This document shows, one piece after another, positions 1 through 61,490 of a DNA stretch of 61,496 nucleotides. The stretch comes from a virus. How positions within the stretch are numbered: the first letter of the stretch is position 1; the number at the start of each line of letters is the position of its first letter. The stretch lies in the UHGV virus genome UHGV-1354897; one strand, written 5' to 3'. Below the pieces are notes generated by a model that saw only the letters and a list, made by a program, of their open reading frames with translations, was not told the origin of the DNA and searched no databases. Both the position numbers and the translations under genes were made by a program.

Positions 1-54
1 CCATAAACTCGTCAAATAATACCAATAGGTACTATATACATTAATAATAAATCC
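1..54. repeat. terminal direct repeat, left copy (identical to 61437..61490)
   Basis: Exact 54-nt identity between window start and end; sequence diverges at position 55. Confidence 0.8.
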
Positions 55-9722: not shown

Positions 9723-10451
9723 ATGGCCATTGAAATTAAAATGTCTTCACAAGTAGTGCAAGACACAGGCGTTAAAATTCTGGTTTACGGTGAAGCGGGT
9801 ATGGGTAAAACCAGCCTTGTAGCCACGCTACCTAAACCAATTTTGATCAGCGCAGAGTCCGGTCTGTTATCTATTGCAGCGGAAAACCTTAATCGCGTTT
9901 ATGGTAACATGGGATTGCCGATCGTTTATGATATCCCAGTTATCGAAGTTAAATGTCTGGAGGACGTTGAAGCTGCTTATCAGTGGTGCGTAACTCCAGC
10001 TAACCAGCAGTATTTCGATTCTATTGCGCTTGACAGCTTGAGCGAAATTGCTGAACAATGTTTAAACAATGCGAAAAAAGGAACAAAAGATCCTCGTCAA
10101 GCTTATGGTACTTTGCTTGAAAAGATGCAAGATCTGATCCGTAAATTTCGCGATATTCCTGGCAAACATGTTTATATGTCTGCTAAAATGGGCAAAGACA
10201 AAGATGAAGTCTCCGGTGTTACCGCGTATGCTCCATCTATGCCTGGGTCCAAATTGGGGCAAATGCTCCCTTATTTCTTCGACGAAGTATTTCGTCTGAA
10301 TGTAAATAAGGATCAGCAAGGTAACTCATATCGTTACTTGCAAACTCAACCGGACTTTAATACAATCGCTAAGGATCGTTCGGGACGTTTAGATGCGGTT
10401 GAAGTCCCACACTTAGGTTCTGTTATCAACAAAATGAAAGGTATCAACTAA
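9723..10451 (+). CDS. Sak4-like RecA-fold ATPase
   Basis: Walker A GEAGMGKTS near N-terminus; about 240 aa; sits beside a DUF669-like gene. Confidence 0.6.
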   Translation: MAIEIKMSSQVVQDTGVKILVYGEAGMGKTSLVATLPKPILISAESGLLSIAAENLNRVYGNMGLPIVYDIPVIEVKCLEDVEAAYQWCVTPANQQYFDSIALDSLSEIAEQCLNNAKKGTKDPRQAYGTLLEKMQDLIRKFRDIPGKHVYMSAKMGKDKDEVSGVTAYAPSMPGSKLGQMLPYFFDEVFRLNVNKDQQGNSYRYLQTQPDFNTIAKDRSGRLDAVEVPHLGSVINKMKGIN

Positions 10452-11320
10452 TGACTATGCCAACTAATTTCCACTTTGACGCGAGCAGCTATCAAGCACC
10501 TTCTTACGGCGCATTGCCGAAAGGTTGGTATAAAGCAGTAATTGAAGCATCTGAATTTAAACCGACCAAAAATGGCGGTATAGCAATCCAGGTAACGTTT
10601 AGCATCATTGATGGTTTTGCTAAAGGTCGTAAAATCTTTGCTCGTTATAACGTTATCAACGACAACGAAGATACTGTGCGTATCGCTTACGAGCAACTGG
10701 GCGCTCTTTCCCACGCTGTAGGCGTAATTCGCTGGGATACCCCTGCTCAACTGCACAACATTCCGCTGAACCTGCGTCTGAAAGTTCGTTCTCAGGAAGG
10801 CTATGAAGACAGCAACGAGCCGAACGGTTACGCTAACATCAACGATCCGGTTAAGTATGCAGAAAAAGAAGCAGGTGCTCCGGCAATGGGTGCTCAAGCA
10901 GCAGTAGCCAACCCGTTCGGTGCAGGTGCTCCAGCACAGCAGCCAGCATTCCCGGGCGCAGCACCGCAGCAGCCAGCAGCTAACCCGTTTGCTCAGCAAC
11001 AGCAAGCTCCGGTACAGCAACAGCAGCAGCCAGTTCAGCAGCCTGTTCAGCAACCAGCACCGCAGCAGGGCGCAGCAGCTCAACCGTGGCAGAACGCAGC
11101 ACCGCAGCCGTGGGATAATCCTGCTCAAAACGCAGCGCCGCAGCAGCCAGTTCAGCAAGCTCCGGTACAACAGCCAGTAGCACCGGAAGCAGCTCAGCAG
11201 CCGTGGGCGCAGCAGGTAGCACAGCCGGGTCAGGCAGCAGCACCACAGCAGCAAGCGCAGCCACAGCAGCAAGCTGAACCGCATCCGGCACAAGCAGCAG
11301 TCCCGCCGTGGCAGCAGTAA
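10451..11320 (+). CDS. DUF669-like phage protein (putative ssDNA-binding) with a long Gln/Pro/Ala-rich C-terminal tail
   Basis: Globular N-terminal ~140 aa, then ~150 aa of low-complexity Q/P/A repeats with PWQ/PWD motifs. Confidence 0.5.
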   Translation: MTMPTNFHFDASSYQAPSYGALPKGWYKAVIEASEFKPTKNGGIAIQVTFSIIDGFAKGRKIFARYNVINDNEDTVRIAYEQLGALSHAVGVIRWDTPAQLHNIPLNLRLKVRSQEGYEDSNEPNGYANINDPVKYAEKEAGAPAMGAQAAVANPFGAGAPAQQPAFPGAAPQQPAANPFAQQQQAPVQQQQQPVQQPVQQPAPQQGAAAQPWQNAAPQPWDNPAQNAAPQQPVQQAPVQQPVAPEAAQQPWAQQVAQPGQAAAPQQQAQPQQQAEPHPAQAAVPPWQQ

Positions 11321-58874: not shown

Positions 58875-59024
58875 TTAATATACCTCTACCAGTTTAACGA
58901 TGGCGCTAAAATCAGCGATTCCAAGTTGCATCTCTGAGCGGACGAAACCTTCTGCGGCTGCACGGTTCGGAGCTTTAACGTCTCCAATGTAGTTACCGTA
59001 GTACATGACTTTAAACTTTCTCAT
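58875..59024 (-). CDS. putative small protein (49 aa)
   Basis: Hand-translated ORF MRKFKVMYYGNYIGDVKAPNRAAAEGF... with GGTGGAGG RBS; stop coupled to the next start. Confidence 0.35.
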   Translation of the reverse strand: MRKFKVMYYGNYIGDVKAPNRAAAEGFVRSEMQLGIADFSAIVKLVEVY

Positions 59025-59247
59025 TTTATTTTCCTCCACCTTTCGGCTTTATCTTTCCTTTGACTATATAGTACGCCATGACTTGATCTATGTCTAGGCC
59101 AAACGTGGCATTTTAGCGTAGCGTTGCTGCAAAGCTGTAGATGCAAAACAATTCTAAAATAGCACTTTTGGCCTATTCAATATCACGATGCAAGGCTATT
59201 ATTACTTCAACAAAGCAATACTGCTTAACCACATTAAGGGTTACATC

Positions 59248-59400
59248 ATGGAATTCAAATTAGTGGAACTCGAGTCCGGTAAAATAGCTGGTTATGTATC
59301 TGCCCCAAGCTGGGAGGAGGCTGAAATCTTCTTAATGGGTCAGTTCGATATGTACATTAGCGACATCTACAAGGAATACGATTTAGTCCAAATTAAGTGA
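59248..59400 (+). CDS. small acidic protein (50 aa), first gene of the rightward block
   Basis: AAGGGT RBS before ATG at 59248; Glu/Asp-rich. Confidence 0.5.
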   Translation: MEFKLVELESGKIAGYVSAPSWEEAEIFLMGQFDMYISDIYKEYDLVQIK

Positions 59401-59441
59401 TTTATATCTTGCCTAGTTGATCCAACTGGGCAATAATAAGT
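59398..59441 (+). repeat. 44-nt intergenic element, copy 1 (TGATTTATATCTTGCCTA...TAATAATAAGT)
   Basis: Starts on the TGA stop codon; contains an imperfect hairpin; near-identical flanks shared with 59971..60014. Confidence 0.6.
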
Positions 59442-59469
59442 CAACTTAAACAAAACGAGGATATACATC

Positions 59470-59973
59470 ATGGCTACCAAACTAATTGGCAAGGGTGCTT
59501 TCACTAAAGCATACCTTCTGGATTCAGGTCGCGTACTTCTAAAATCTTGCGACCCTATTAAAGAATGCATGGCGTGGGGATGGTTTCCTGAGCATGAATT
59601 ATTTCCCCATGTCACAATGATAGACACAGGAGTCTACGAAATGGATTATTATCCTCGTGTTCGCAGCTTAAAGAGCGCTTTACAACCTGAGCAATACGCA
59701 CTCTATAAACAACTCCGCAGCTTGTGCGCAGGGTTAGAGATGCCGCGTAATACATATGACAACTATAGCTATCTATATGATGTTTTCAGTAATAGCGACC
59801 TGGCCCAAGACATTAAAGATGTGCTCCTGGAAGCTTTGGATGCTTGCGCTAATATTGGTCCGCAAATGTGGTTTGAAATCAGTCCTCGCAATGTGGCGGT
59901 AAAAAACGGAAAACTTGTTTTGCTGGATGTTTTCTTTTGTACACAAGCTCTAAAGAATATCAGAAATAGTTGA
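59470..59973 (+). CDS. minimal protein-kinase-like protein (T7 gp0.7-like)
   Basis: Gly-rich loop LIGKGAFTKAY, candidate Lys in RVLLKS, catalytic-loop-like ISPRNVAVKNGKLVLLDVFF; only 167 aa. Confidence 0.45.
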   Translation: MATKLIGKGAFTKAYLLDSGRVLLKSCDPIKECMAWGWFPEHELFPHVTMIDTGVYEMDYYPRVRSLKSALQPEQYALYKQLRSLCAGLEMPRNTYDNYSYLYDVFSNSDLAQDIKDVLLEALDACANIGPQMWFEISPRNVAVKNGKLVLLDVFFCTQALKNIRNS

Positions 59974-60014
59974 TTTATATCTTGCCTACTTCAACTTAGT
60001 AGGTAATAATAAGT
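59971..60014 (+). repeat. 44-nt intergenic element, copy 2
   Basis: TGATTTATATCTTGCCTACTTCAACTTAGTAGGTAATAATAAGT; same flanks as copy 1, different central hairpin. Confidence 0.6.
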
Positions 60015-60059
60015 ACAACTTAGCAAGACTACTAAACAATCCAACAGAAGGAATATACC

Positions 60060-60674
60060 ATGTCTAAAGTAACCCACCGCGAACAGGATAAAATGCGCTA
60101 CACCATGAAAACGAATGCACGCCGCGCTCTGAAGACCCGCTGGGGCCAGGTTGCACGCGATGCACACGAACAGCTTATCCATCAGGACGACATTGGTTTT
60201 TACATTATCGAGAAGGAAGTCCTTCAGGTGCTGCGCGATCACGAAAAAGCGCAACAGCCGGAGCACAAAGTCCCGGCACCGACCGCCGCGCCAGCTGCCA
60301 GCGTCTCGGTACTGCGCCCGATGGTAAATCCGGAAATTGTCAAAAGCTGCCTCGAAGCTCTGGAGCAGGAGGAAGAGAAAGATATGAAACATGCAAAAGC
60401 TGCCACGCAGGTTTCTGAAATCAAAATCGAAGAGCCAAAAGCTGCCGCGCCAAAACAGGATGTAAAAGCTGCTCGCTGTGATTTCAAAAATGGCGCTCGC
60501 AAGCCTCTGAAAGGAAAAACTGCCGAAGTGTGGGCAATGGGTGACAAACTTTTAGCCGAACTGGGCCGCACGCCGGAGCTGAAAGAAATGAAAGCTGCAA
60601 TGCCTTCTTACAACGGGACGACGGTAGCCATTCAGTTCTACGCTTGGCGCAAATATAACGGCCTGGACGCATAA
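60060..60674 (+). CDS. Ala/Pro/Lys-rich protein sharing a C-terminal domain with the 14954..15757 product
   Basis: C-terminus NGARKP...EVWAMGDKLLAELGR...AIQFYAWRKYNGL aligns with NGVRRP...RAWALMDQISATLGQ...KTQYARWKKFNGV; GC-richer than neighbours by eye. Confidence 0.65.
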   Translation: MSKVTHREQDKMRYTMKTNARRALKTRWGQVARDAHEQLIHQDDIGFYIIEKEVLQVLRDHEKAQQPEHKVPAPTAAPAASVSVLRPMVNPEIVKSCLEALEQEEEKDMKHAKAATQVSEIKIEEPKAAAPKQDVKAARCDFKNGARKPLKGKTAEVWAMGDKLLAELGRTPELKEMKAAMPSYNGTTVAIQFYAWRKYNGLDA

Positions 60675-61436: not shown

Positions 61437-61490
61437 CCATAAACTCGTCAAATAATACCAATAGGTACTATATACATTAATAATAAATCC
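61437..61490. repeat. terminal direct repeat, right copy (identical to 1..54)
   Basis: Exact 54-nt match to the window start. Confidence 0.8.

What the first reader, a model, noticed from the sequence alone, without database searches (positions are those of the whole stretch)
59398..60014. Two copies of a 44-nt intergenic element flanking the kinase-like gene
Both copies start on the TGA stop of the preceding gene. They share the flanks TGATTTATATCTTGCCTA and (T/G)AATAATAAGT around a central hairpin whose sequence differs but keeps its pairing. This may be a promoter with an operator-like hairpin (a TTGCCT to AATAAT spacing is plausible) or an RNA processing site.
Basis: seen in the sequence. 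Interest (0 to 1): 0.5.

Follow-up and report, generated by a model that had tools for sequence, protein, structure and literature searches.

The report
Hairpin joints bounding phage early-gene cassettes
The two repeats are copies of a conserved, roughly 55-base RNA hairpin that closes each small early gene of this Seurat-like coliphage and marks the exact points where such genes are gained, lost or swapped between phages; it is a modest new variant of known phage intergenic hairpins, and its biochemical role is untested.

Summary
The window is a complete Seuratvirus genome, and the element occurs exactly twice (E1 59398-59441, E2 59971-60014). Each 44-nt copy is the core of a longer three-helix hairpin (59393-59449 and 59968-60020). 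The hairpin begins in the last codons of the upstream gene.

Across 37 distinct relatives, all 11 pairs of the upper helix show compensatory changes. These relatives come from Seuratvirus, Nonagvirus, Vidquintavirus, T5-like phages and uncultured contigs. G-U pairs outnumber A-C mismatches 32 to 5, which points to a structure in the sense RNA.

Phage SA80RD lacks exactly one repeat period (59442-60015). CAjan carries a different gene in the same slot. The copies are therefore cassette joints.

The TTGCCT-17-AATAAT match is only 9 of 12 and ranks about 103rd in the genome. It is absent from two hairpin classes that still keep the invariant UAUA/UAAUA core. An operator reading fails, and there is no U-tract for a terminator.

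My best reading is an intercistronic RNA processing or 3'-end-protecting hairpin like the T7 RNase III sites, possibly with weak promoter activity, and reused as recombination homology. The structure and the joint role are shown. The RNase III step is inferred. The 'kinase-like' label is unsupported.

The parts
59393..59449 (+). E1, full three-helix hairpin. Outer helix TTAAGT/ACTTAA (59393-59398 with 59444-59449) with a bulged A at 59443. Middle helix GATTTAT/ATAAGTC (59399-59405 with 59436-59442). A 3x2 internal loop, ATC (59406-59408) opposite TA (59434-59435). Upper helix 59409-59419 with 59423-59433, and apical loop ATC.
   Evidence: RNA fold of 59380-59460 gives -24.4 kcal/mol, z = -5.3, with 0 of 200 shuffles folding as well. 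Covariance-model hit of 86 bits. Covariation.
59398..59441 (+). It begins on TGA 59398-59400, the stop codon of the upstream small ORF.
59409..59437 (+). Sigma-70-like match inside E1: TTGCCT (59409-59414), a 17-nt spacer, then AATAAT (59432-59437). The -35 hexamer is the 5' arm of the upper helix. The -10 hexamer spans the 3' arm, the internal loop and the middle helix.
   Evidence: 9 of 12 match in the scan. PWM score 8.9, about rank 103 in the genome but the best + strand candidate in 59000-60100.
59968..60020 (+). E2, full hairpin. Lower helices AGTTGATTTAT (59968-59978) with ATAAGT (60009-60014) and CAACT (60016-60020), with a bulged A at 60015. Internal loop ATC opposite TA. Upper helix 59982-59990 with 59998-60006. 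Apical loop TCAACTT.
   Evidence: RNA fold gives -17.5 kcal/mol, z = -2.8. Covariance-model hit of 69.9 bits.
59971..60014 (+). It begins on TGA 59971-59973, the stop codon of the 167-aa gene. It carries TTGCCT (59982-59987), a 17-nt spacer, and AATAAT (60005-60010).
59442..60015 (+). A 574-bp cassette: leader, 167-aa gene and one element copy. This is one repeat period, and it is exactly absent from phage SA80RD. CAjan-type phages carry an unrelated 82-aa gene with a C-type hairpin in this slot.
   Evidence: Pairwise alignment: window 59180-59441 matches L004 2501-2762 at 97%, then jumps to 60016. Sequences read.
59248..59400 (+). Upstream small early gene (50 aa from ATG 59248, which has an AAGG ribosome-binding site; 70 aa if started at 59188). 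Its last codons and its stop form the 5' arm of E1. This gene plus E1 plus the leader (59240-59464) is missing from phage Seurat.
59470..59973 (+). It belongs to PHROG 11084, function unknown, and is 51% identical to early gp2 of the T7-like phage SH4.
60060..60674 (+). Conserved 204-aa gene downstream of E2. In every relative examined where its 5' end and upstream DNA were available, a hairpin of this family lies directly upstream of its homologue. This includes Vid5, whose protein is only 33% identical.

Best explanation
Each copy is the DNA for a three-helix RNA hairpin of about 55 nt that closes a small early-gene cassette.

The hairpin has lower helices of about 12 bp that include the upstream gene's stop codon. 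Above them is an invariant internal loop, A-N-N opposite U-A. Above that is an upper helix of 9-11 bp whose sequence is free to vary as long as it pairs.

The hairpin forms in the sense polycistronic early mRNA, read rightward from the divergent control region near 59040-59250. I think it most likely acts there as an intercistronic processing and 3'-end-protecting signal of the kind T7 uses, namely host RNase III cleavage at the internal loop. That would leave the upstream message capped by the upper hairpin and free the downstream leader.

Because the arms and the adjoining leader are nearly identical between copies, they also act as patches of homology. Recombination between two copies deletes the gene between them. 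Recombination with another phage inserts or replaces a cassette.

The embedded TTGCCT-17-AATAAT may give some internal initiation in the classes that have it, but it is not the conserved determinant.

Shown: the structure, its sense-strand bias, its conservation across phage groups, and the cassette breakpoints. Inferred: that it is transcribed through, and that RNase III (or another RNase or exonuclease barrier) is the effector.
For: - Structure: folds. On a plain MAFFT alignment of 12 variants, 9 of 11 upper-helix pairs change on both sides and 92% of cells pair. Sliding the partner by 1-3 columns drops pairing of the whole structure from 87.7% to 28-48%. On 37 distinct sequences, 11 of 11 upper-helix pairs covary and 94% pair, with 0 of 500 shuffles reaching the observed score.
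- RNA and strand: 32 G-U cells against 5 A-C cells. The antisense strand folds worse (z = -0.8 for E2). The antisense hits score 26.6 and 13.7 bits against 86 and 69.9 for the sense copies.
- Orientation: the element lies sense to the flanking genes, right after a stop codon, in all seven contexts where I checked the flanking genes. These are the Seuratvirus rightward cluster, the leftward-cluster M class, Nonagvirus JenP1, Vid5, T5-like phages after gene A2, and contigs L180 and L172.
- Not promoter-driven: the invariant columns are 5' UAUA and 3' UAAUA, including the unpaired A and UA. They hold in classes C and M, which lack the -11 A. In T5-like copies the TTGCCC-to-AATAAT spacing runs from 15 to 19 while the hairpin is kept. 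The characterised T5 pre-early promoters lie elsewhere, at hdi and gene 011 (bioRxiv 10.64898/2026.04.02.716235).
- RNase III-like anatomy: 24 bp (E1) and 20 bp (E2) of quasi-continuous helix with an internal loop. This matches the stated requirement of about two helical turns, with internal loops limiting cleavage so that a protective 3' hairpin remains (PMC1540722). T7 sites R0.5, R1 and R1.1 fold into the same lower stem / internal loop / 9-10 bp upper stem layout, and in the two that directly follow a gene (R0.5 after gene 0.4, R1 after gene 0.7) the hairpin region begins at that gene's TGA. The best-conserved upper-helix pairs, U-A and G-C at the second and third positions above the loop, fit proximal-box positions 2 and 1.
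- Cassette joints: SA80RD lacks exactly 59442-60015, and Seurat lacks 59240-59464. CAjan and SA126VB carry an 82-aa gene plus a C-type hairpin in the slot. CSP1 and SLUR25 carry a hybrid C' hairpin.
Against: - No transcript data exist for any Seuratvirus. Read-through from upstream is inferred only from gene layout, and I found no convincing + strand promoter upstream of 59188.
- RNase III sequence rules are weak, and my match to them is partial. The distal box is not canonical, and the proximal-box register depends on an assumed cleavage position. Natural sites often fail the consensus (PMC5371410).
- The hexamers with 17-bp spacing recur in several independent hairpin classes (A, B, S, Y, Vid5, L180). 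Class K replaces the -35 but gains TGTTATAAT, a perfect extended -10. This looks like selection for promoter function in part of the family.
- The leader after the element is conserved from Seuratvirus to Vid5, as a promoter plus 5' UTR unit would be.
- The covariation counts come from a model-fitted alignment and from related sequences, so they overstate independence.
Confidence: 0.45

Rival explanations
1. Internal sigma-70 early promoters. RNA polymerase binds TTGCCT (-35) and AATAAT (-10) and starts about 7 nt downstream. Each cassette then brings its own promoter and conserved leader. The palindrome in the spacer would be a secondary feature, for example tuning promoter strength through DNA structure, or terminating or insulating upstream transcription.
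For: - Optimal 17-bp spacing in both window copies, with 9 of 12 matches.
- They are the best + strand candidates in 59000-60100, where no good upstream promoter is seen.
- The same TTGCNN-17-AATAAT layout is kept in hairpin classes with different stems: A, B, S, Y, Vid5 and L180.
- Class K loses TTG but gains TGTTATAAT.
- JenP1 reads TTGCCC-17-TAATAT.
- Every phage examined has at least one promoter-competent copy upstream of the 204-aa gene.
- The leader is conserved as far as Vid5.
Against: - The score is ordinary: about rank 103 in the genome, and the regional scan found 9-of-12 matches at the frequency seen in shuffles. The -10 lacks the conserved first T, and there is no TG extension.
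- Classes C and M lack the -11 A. C' and C have 15-bp spacing. All of them keep the hairpin and the invariant TAATA.
- T5-like copies vary the spacing from 15 to 19, and they are not among the mapped T5 pre-early promoters.
- A promoter does not need spacer complementarity, and it gives no reason for a G-U bias on the sense strand.
Confidence: 0.25
2. Leaky intrinsic terminators or attenuators that partition the early operon. This is how the GenBank records of SA126VB and Shivani annotate them.
For: - Annotated as 'rho-independent terminator' by WebGeSTer/TransTermHP in SA126VB, and as 'terminator' in the T5-like phage Shivani.
- The hairpin is stable and lies directly after stop codons.
Against: - No U-tract follows either the upper helix (AAUAAUAAGU) or the whole hairpin (ACAAAAC in E1, AGCAAGA in E2).
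- The terminator scan does not list either copy.
- The essential-looking 204-aa gene lies downstream without a strong promoter of its own in C-class phages, so efficient termination would silence it.
Confidence: 0.1
3. Primarily a DNA-level mobility element. This would be a structure-defined recombination site, like PeSL mini-circles or integron attC, whose main selected role is to move early-gene cassettes within and between phage families.
For: - Indel and replacement breakpoints fall exactly at the copies.
- Hybrid elements exist (C' and SA80RD).
- The same element design occurs in Queuovirinae, Vidquintavirus and T5-like phages, in some cases with near-identical arms. GTTGATTTAT is shared with a T5-like contig.
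- The cassette gene itself is shared with T7-like phages.
Against: - Ordinary homologous recombination at any conserved intergenic sequence gives the same breakpoints.
- No integrase or dedicated recombinase was seen among the ten ORFs I scanned.
- The attC core motifs RYYYAAC / GTTRRRY are not present.
- There are only two copies in this genome.
- The sense-strand G-U bias and the fixed sense orientation argue for an RNA role.
Confidence: 0.12
4. Operator for a dimeric phage or host DNA-binding protein that represses an overlapping promoter.
For: The inverted repeat lies between the -35 and -10 hexamers. TTGCC/GGCAA is well conserved.
Against: The stems of classes K, M and C share no half-site sequence with class A, yet they keep pairing through double substitutions. 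G-U pairs are tolerated only in the sense strand.
Confidence: 0.03

Closest known systems
T7-group RNase III processing signals (R0.3, R0.5, R1, R1.1, R1.3)
   Same: - A repeated family of intergenic hairpins of about 50-60 nt between early genes.
- A lower stem, an internal loop and a 9-10 bp upper stem. R0.5 and R1 begin at the upstream gene's TGA.
- About two helical turns in total, with A/U-rich pairs next to the loop followed by G-C.
- The expected product is an upstream mRNA capped by a 3' hairpin (PMC1540722).
   Different: - No sequence similarity.
- The internal loop is smaller (3x2, against about 4x5).
- A sigma-70-like hexamer pair overlaps the hairpin.
- Only 1-3 copies per genome.
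- Cleavage has never been tested.
PeSL (promoter-early stem-loop) cassettes of T4-like phages (Arbiol et al. 2010, PMC2839356; Comeau et al. 2014, PMC4122927)
   Same: - A composite stem-loop plus sigma-70-type promoter, followed by a ribosome-binding site and start codon, between small early genes.
- It sits at insertion, deletion and replacement boundaries between close relatives.
- Recombination between tandem copies deletes the intervening ORF.
   Different: - In PeSLs the stem-loop lies upstream of the promoter. Here the -35 hexamer is the 5' arm and the -10 hexamer overlaps the 3' arm.
- PeSL promoters are near consensus and the elements are numerous, clustered in hyperplastic regions. 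Here the promoter is 9 of 12, is missing in some classes, and the genome has two copies.
- The host phages are siphoviruses of about 60 kb, not T4-like.
Morons and conserved boundary sequences of lambdoid phages (from my own knowledge, not checked here)
   Same: Single accessory genes bracketed by short regulatory sequences and exchanged as units.
   Different: Morons carry a normal promoter upstream and a U-tract terminator downstream. Here there is no shared hairpin with covariation of that kind.
REP/BIME intercistronic palindromes of E. coli (from my own knowledge, not checked here)
   Same: Imperfect palindromes inside operons that protect upstream mRNA from 3' exonucleases and act as recombination hot spots.
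   Different: Different sequence and size. REPs are chromosomal and occur in hundreds of copies. No RAYT-type transposase is involved here.
Integron attC sites
   Same: Gene plus a 3' structure-defined imperfect palindrome as the unit of exchange, with structure conserved more than sequence.
   Different: The core sites RYYYAAC/GTTRRRY are not present. No integrase was seen among the ten ORFs scanned. Orientation and strand evidence point to RNA.

Membership tests
RNase III processing signal (E. coli/T7 type) | About two helical turns of quasi-continuous double helix | tested here: met
   E1 has 6+7+11 = 24 bp. E2 has 5+6+9 = 20 bp. The criterion is quoted from PMC1540722.
RNase III processing signal (E. 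coli/T7 type) | Internal loop or bulge at the target site that limits cleavage to one strand | tested here: met
   A 3x2 internal loop, A-N-N opposite U-A, with invariant A, U and A in 37 distinct sequences.
RNase III processing signal (E. coli/T7 type) | Proximal-box and distal-box base-pair preferences (pb1 GC, pb2 AU/UA, pb3 AU, pb4 AU/UA; db UA then UG) | tested here: inconclusive
   If the scissile site lies in the loop, then pb3 = U-A, pb2 = U-A (36/37) and pb1 = G-C (33/37). The distal box is not canonical. The register is assumed, not measured. Natural sites often miss the consensus.
RNase III processing signal (E. coli/T7 type) | Lies within a polycistronic transcript, in the sense orientation | tested here: inconclusive
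   Sense orientation held in all seven contexts where flanking genes were checked, and the G-U bias is 32 to 5. No transcript data are available.
RNase III processing signal (E. coli/T7 type) | Cleaved by RNase III | not testable with these tools
   Needs an in vitro cleavage assay or end mapping in wild-type versus rnc-mutant cells.
PeSL (T4-like promoter-early stem-loop) | Stem-loop placed just upstream of the promoter's -35 hexamer | tested here: not met
   Here the -35 hexamer is the 5' arm of the stem and the -10 hexamer overlaps the 3' arm. PeSL layout taken from PMC4122927.
PeSL (T4-like promoter-early stem-loop) | Sigma-70 promoter with 17-bp spacing, conserved in the family | tested here: inconclusive
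   9 of 12 match with 17-bp spacing in classes A, B, S, Y and Vid5. 15-bp spacing in C' and J. Absent in C and M.
PeSL (T4-like promoter-early stem-loop) | Many copies per genome, clustered in hyperplastic regions | tested here: not met
   Two copies in 61.4 kb. One place per record in 32 of 33 related genomes, plus C or M copies in some.
PeSL (T4-like promoter-early stem-loop) | Located at indel and replacement boundaries between close relatives | tested here: met
   SA80RD lacks exactly 59442-60015. CAjan has a replacement gene in the slot. Seurat lacks 59240-59464.
Intrinsic (rho-independent) terminator | U-rich tract immediately 3' of a G+C-rich stem | tested here: not met
   The tails are AAUAAUAAGU after the upper helix, and ACAAAAC (E1) or AGCAAGA (E2) after the full hairpin. 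Neither copy is listed by the terminator scan.
Sigma-70 promoter | -35 and -10 hexamers with 16-18 bp spacing, an A at -11 and a T at -7 | tested here: met
   TTGCCT-17-AATAAT in both window copies. However, the regional scan found such matches no more often than in shuffles, and my PWM scan ranks them about 103rd in the genome.
Sigma-70 promoter | Transcription starts there | not testable with these tools
   Needs dRNA-seq, 5' RACE or reporter fusions.
Integron attC | Core sites R'' RYYYAAC and R' GTTRRRY, with an integron integrase | tested here: not met
   The arms read GTTGATT and AGTCAAC/GTACAAC, which do not fit, and they are in the wrong order. No integrase turned up among the ten ORFs scanned; the whole genome was not screened.
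Any Rfam family | Covariance-model match | tested here: not met
   Only chance hits with E of 0.16 or more, all far below gathering scores.

The most novel reading that the evidence does not exclude
The hairpin is a portable, structure-defined 'end-piece' for early-gene cassettes that is shared by otherwise unrelated virulent coliphages (Queuovirinae, Vidquintavirus, T5-like Demerecviridae and uncultured phages). It would do two jobs at once. It would supply post-transcriptional punctuation for the gene it closes. It would also provide the homology or recombination site that lets host-takeover genes move between phage families. That would make it a siphovirus counterpart of PeSLs or integron attC sites.
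Probability: 0.18. Interest if true: 0.7.

Novelty: new variant of a known kind. Interest (0 to 1): 0.45.

Why it matters
Early 'host-takeover' regions are the most plastic and least understood parts of virulent phage genomes. A defined, alignable element at the ends of these genes gives three things.

- A practical marker for cassette boundaries. It also corrects database annotation: the copies are currently labelled as terminators in SA126VB and Shivani, and the neighbouring genes are called on the wrong strand in Vid5.
- A testable case of RNase III-type mRNA punctuation outside the T7 group, in phages from the BASEL collection that are easy to work with.
- A concrete mechanism for how accessory genes are shuffled within Seuratvirus, and possibly between phage families.

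If the hairpin only stabilises messages, it is an ordinary feature described more precisely.

Tried and rejected
- **IMG/VR scan with the 14-mer ATTTATATCTTGCC.** It returned almost only chance matches; one real locus, slur01. Too unspecific.
- **The search for related loci with the 204-aa protein in IMG/VR.** Only 4 loci, so the INPHARED phage records were used instead.
- **Pattern with the wrong spacer length.** Zero hits. This was my own counting error, since the spacer is 16 nt, and says nothing about the element.
- **Rfam.** Nothing.
- **Phage-encoded RNA polymerase or N4-type hairpin promoter.** None of the five large ORFs scanned resembles an RNA polymerase; they are primase/helicase, helicase, tail proteins and one with no match. 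Rejected.
- **Operator.** Rejected, because there is no conserved half-site across classes.
- **Intrinsic terminator.** Rejected, because there is no U-tract.
- **Sigma-54 promoter and MotA-box resemblance.** Checked by eye. The spacing and motifs do not fit.
- **Stop-codon read-through signal.** The frame relation to the upstream stop is not conserved (TGA in the window, TAA upstream in SHIN8 and KS_S4). Rejected.
- **attC.** The core motifs are absent.
- **Element travelling with the T7-like homologue of the 167-aa gene.** In phage SH4 the homologue overlaps its neighbours, and the model finds no copy there.
- **'Kinase-like' label.** No support.
Full report
**What the window is.** Bases 1-54 repeat at 61437-61490, so the window is a closed genome of about 61.4 kb. 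Megablast places it in Seuratvirus (Queuovirinae), 92-96% identical to phages Seurat, CAjan, slur01 and several BASEL phages. Coverage of the region around the finding is patchy, 36-92%. The finding lies 200-800 bp inside a rightward cluster of small genes. That cluster starts at a divergent intergenic region near 59040-59250.

**The observation.** The 18-nt left flank occurs exactly twice, against 0.07 expected.

Four corrections are needed. First, the variable base before AATAATAAGT is C/T, not T/G. Second, the 'flanks' pair with each other. Folding 81-nt windows gives a three-helix hairpin at 59393-59449 (-24.4 kcal/mol, z = -5.3) and another at 59968-60020 (-17.5 kcal/mol, z = -2.8). Each includes the last codons and the stop of the upstream gene, a 3x2 internal loop (AUC opposite UA), and an upper helix of 11 or 9 bp. 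Third, the upstream stop is not a TGA in every relative: SHIN8 and KS_S4 use a TAA a few bases earlier. Fourth, the 'kinase-like' label has no support from Pfam, PHROGs, PDB sequences or comparison with T7 gp0.7. The protein is 51% identical to early gp2 of the T7-like phage SH4.

**Copy number.** A covariance model built from 14 variants was run over the whole window with filters off. It finds only E1 (86 bits) and E2 (69.9 bits) in the sense orientation. The next unrelated hit scores 15 bits. In 32 of 33 related genomes the A/B-type sequence occurs once, always at this locus. This is therefore a locus-specific element, not a genome-wide repeat.

**Why there are two copies.**
- Phage SA80RD matches window 59180-59441 at 97% and then continues at 60016. 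It lacks exactly 59442-60015, which is 574 bp or one repeat period. Its single element has an E1-type stem joined to the E2-type leader, so the crossover lay in AATAATAAGT/CAACTTA. SHIN8 is built the same way behind a different upstream gene.
- CAjan, SA126VB, slur01 and others carry an unrelated 82-aa gene in the slot. That gene is followed by a diverged hairpin, class C.
- CSP1, SLUR25 and phiG7 carry a hybrid, class C'.
- Seurat lacks 59240-59464, which is the first small gene plus E1 plus the leader.

The copies are thus the joints of exchangeable single-gene cassettes.

**The hairpin is under selection as a structure.** On a plain MAFFT alignment of 12 variants, 9 of 11 upper-helix pairs change on both sides and 92% of cells pair. 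For the whole structure, 87.7% of cells pair, and sliding the 3' partner by 1-3 columns drops this to 28-48%.

The model then found further members:
- class M in the leftward gene cluster of other Seuratviruses, sense to those genes;
- class J in Nonagvirus JenP1;
- a copy upstream of the 204-aa homologue in Pantoea phage Vid5;
- copies downstream of pre-early gene A2 in T5-like phages;
- copies in uncultured viral contigs.

On 37 distinct sequences, all 11 upper-helix pairs covary, 94% of cells pair, and 0 of 500 shuffles reach the observed score. That alignment is model-fitted and the sequences are related, so these numbers are generous. The independent MAFFT result points the same way.

The stems of different classes share no sequence: TTGCCTAGTTG, TTGCCTACT, TTGCCGA, TAACAGACTG, CTGCTCATC, AATGGGCAT, TTGCCCCCTT. 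That rules out an operator read by a protein.

**RNA rather than DNA.** G-U pairs, which are possible only in the sense strand, number 32 cells. A-C mismatches, which would be G-U in the antisense strand, number 5. The antisense strands fold worse and score far lower with the model. In the seven contexts where I checked the flanking genes, the element lies in their sense orientation, starting at or just after a stop codon. In an eighth group of T5-like contigs (L201, L179, L190) the model's top hit is antisense to the adjacent gene; read in the gene's sense, the same palindrome follows the stop with an altered internal loop and no -10-like hexamer.

**Promoter reading.** TTGCCT-17-AATAAT is present in both copies, and these are locally the best + strand candidates. 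It is only a 9-of-12 match. The regional scan found such matches no more often than in shuffles, 19 against 18.2 expected, and it ranks about 103rd in my PWM scan of the genome.

In favour of a promoter:
- the same layout recurs in several stem classes;
- class K trades the -35 for a perfect extended -10, TGTTATAAT;
- the leader is conserved as far as Vid5.

Against a promoter:
- classes C and M lack the -11 A, and C and C' have 15-bp spacing, yet all keep the hairpin and the invariant 5' UAUA and 3' UAAUA, including the unpaired loop bases;
- T5-like copies vary the spacing from 15 to 19 through small duplications while keeping the hairpin;
- the experimentally characterised T5 pre-early promoters lie elsewhere.

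I conclude that promoter activity is possible in some copies but does not explain the conservation.

**Terminator reading.** Two GenBank records annotate these hairpins as terminators. No U-tract follows either the upper helix or the whole hairpin, and the scan does not list them.

**Most likely mechanism.** The anatomy matches the T7 early RNase III sites that I folded for comparison. Those have a lower stem, an internal loop and a 9-10 bp upper stem. R0.5 and R1, which directly follow genes 0.4 and 0.7, begin at that gene's TGA.

E. coli RNase III needs about two helical turns, which may be coaxially stacked. Internal loops restrict cutting to one strand and leave a protective 3' hairpin (PMC1540722). 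E1 offers 24 bp and E2 offers 20 bp. If cleavage is in the loop, the two best-conserved upper-helix pairs (U-A, then G-C) fall on proximal-box positions 2 and 1. The distal box does not fit, and natural sites often miss the consensus.

I therefore propose that the hairpin punctuates the polycistronic early mRNA and protects the upstream message. I also propose that its conserved arms double as recombination homology. The first part is inferred, with about 0.35 confidence on RNase III specifically. The structure and the joint role are shown.

**Comparison with known systems.** The nearest functional analogues are the T7 RNase III sites and the PeSL promoter/stem-loop cassettes of T4-like phages (PMC4122927).

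It is not a PeSL by the defining layout. In a PeSL the stem-loop lies upstream of a near-consensus promoter, and there are many copies per genome. It does share the association with indels. It has no Rfam family. I found no paper describing it.

**Verdict.** This is a real, structured and conserved element, and a new variant of a known kind of phage intergenic punctuation. Its interest is moderate. It would rise if the cross-family, cassette-mobilising role proved true.

Noticed in passing
window 1-54 and 61437-61490: These 54 bases are identical at both ends, so the window is a circularly closed, complete phage genome of about 61.4 kb with the join inside a long intergenic region.
   Followed up: partly
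L141 (Pantoea phage Vid5, MG948468) 990-2600: GenBank calls Vid5_gp78-gp85 on one strand. The homologue of the 204-aa protein (ORF 1571-2113), a 65-aa ORF (1281-1478) and the hairpin between them lie on the opposite strand. The deposited annotation is probably on the wrong strand here.
   Followed up: partly
window 59479-59592; L135 (Citrobacter phage SH4) 1098-1622: The 167-aa cassette gene shares 68-75% nucleotide identity and 51% protein identity with an early gene (gp2) of T7-like Kayfunavirus phages. It is therefore an early gene shared across phage families. The T7-like copies have no hairpin.
   Followed up: yes
L002 1792-1855(-), L139 616-679(-), L140 777-840(-), and others: A further class of the same hairpin (class M, stem AATGGGCA/TGCCCATT, no promoter-like -10) sits between leftward early genes in CAjan, Dru_SM1, yong3 and others. 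It is absent from the corresponding part of this window.
   Followed up: partly
L262 2502-2560 (Shivani); L264-L267: T5-like phages carry a related hairpin directly after pre-early gene A2. Some (GEC_vB_N3, 3sent1, GE_vB_N8) have a tandem duplication of CTTGCCCC inside the stem that changes its length.
   Followed up: partly
L201 556-625, L179, L190 (T5-like contigs): Another palindrome with a TTGCCCGC/GCGGGCAA core follows a 135-aa gene on the opposite strand. Read in that gene's sense it begins GTTGATTTAT, identical to the Seuratvirus left arm. Its internal loop differs and it has no AATAAT.
   Followed up: no
window 59243-59251 and 59465-59473: The same 9-mer, ACATCATGG, spans the start codons of the first small gene (ATG 59248) and of the 167-aa gene. 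This suggests 59248, not 59188, is the true start of the first gene. It is also a second short homology flanking the segment missing in Seurat.
   Followed up: partly
L140 (Hafnia phage yong3) 2229-2298: After the 204-aa homologue there is a 9-bp hairpin, CTGCTGTAG/CTACAGCAG, whose large loop contains GCTATAATAAGT. This resembles the right half of the element. It may be a recombination remnant or a promoter.
   Followed up: no
window 10925-11270: A cluster of imperfect direct repeats rich in CAGCAGCC/GCACCG lies inside a + strand ORF (10451-11320). It probably encodes a low-complexity Gln/Pro/Ala-rich protein segment.
   Followed up: no
window 59040-59250: The divergent early control region has recognisable leftward promoter candidates (TTGAAT-18-TAGAAT at 59180, TAGACA-17-TACTAT at 59096). 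It has no + strand match better than PWM score 7, so the promoter of the rightward cluster is unclear.
   Followed up: partly
L263 (CSP1C, PQ202980) 828-977: A 49-aa ORF upstream of the element is annotated 'serine/theronin preotein kinase' in GenBank. That is implausible for its size, and may be the source of kinase labels in this region.
   Followed up: no
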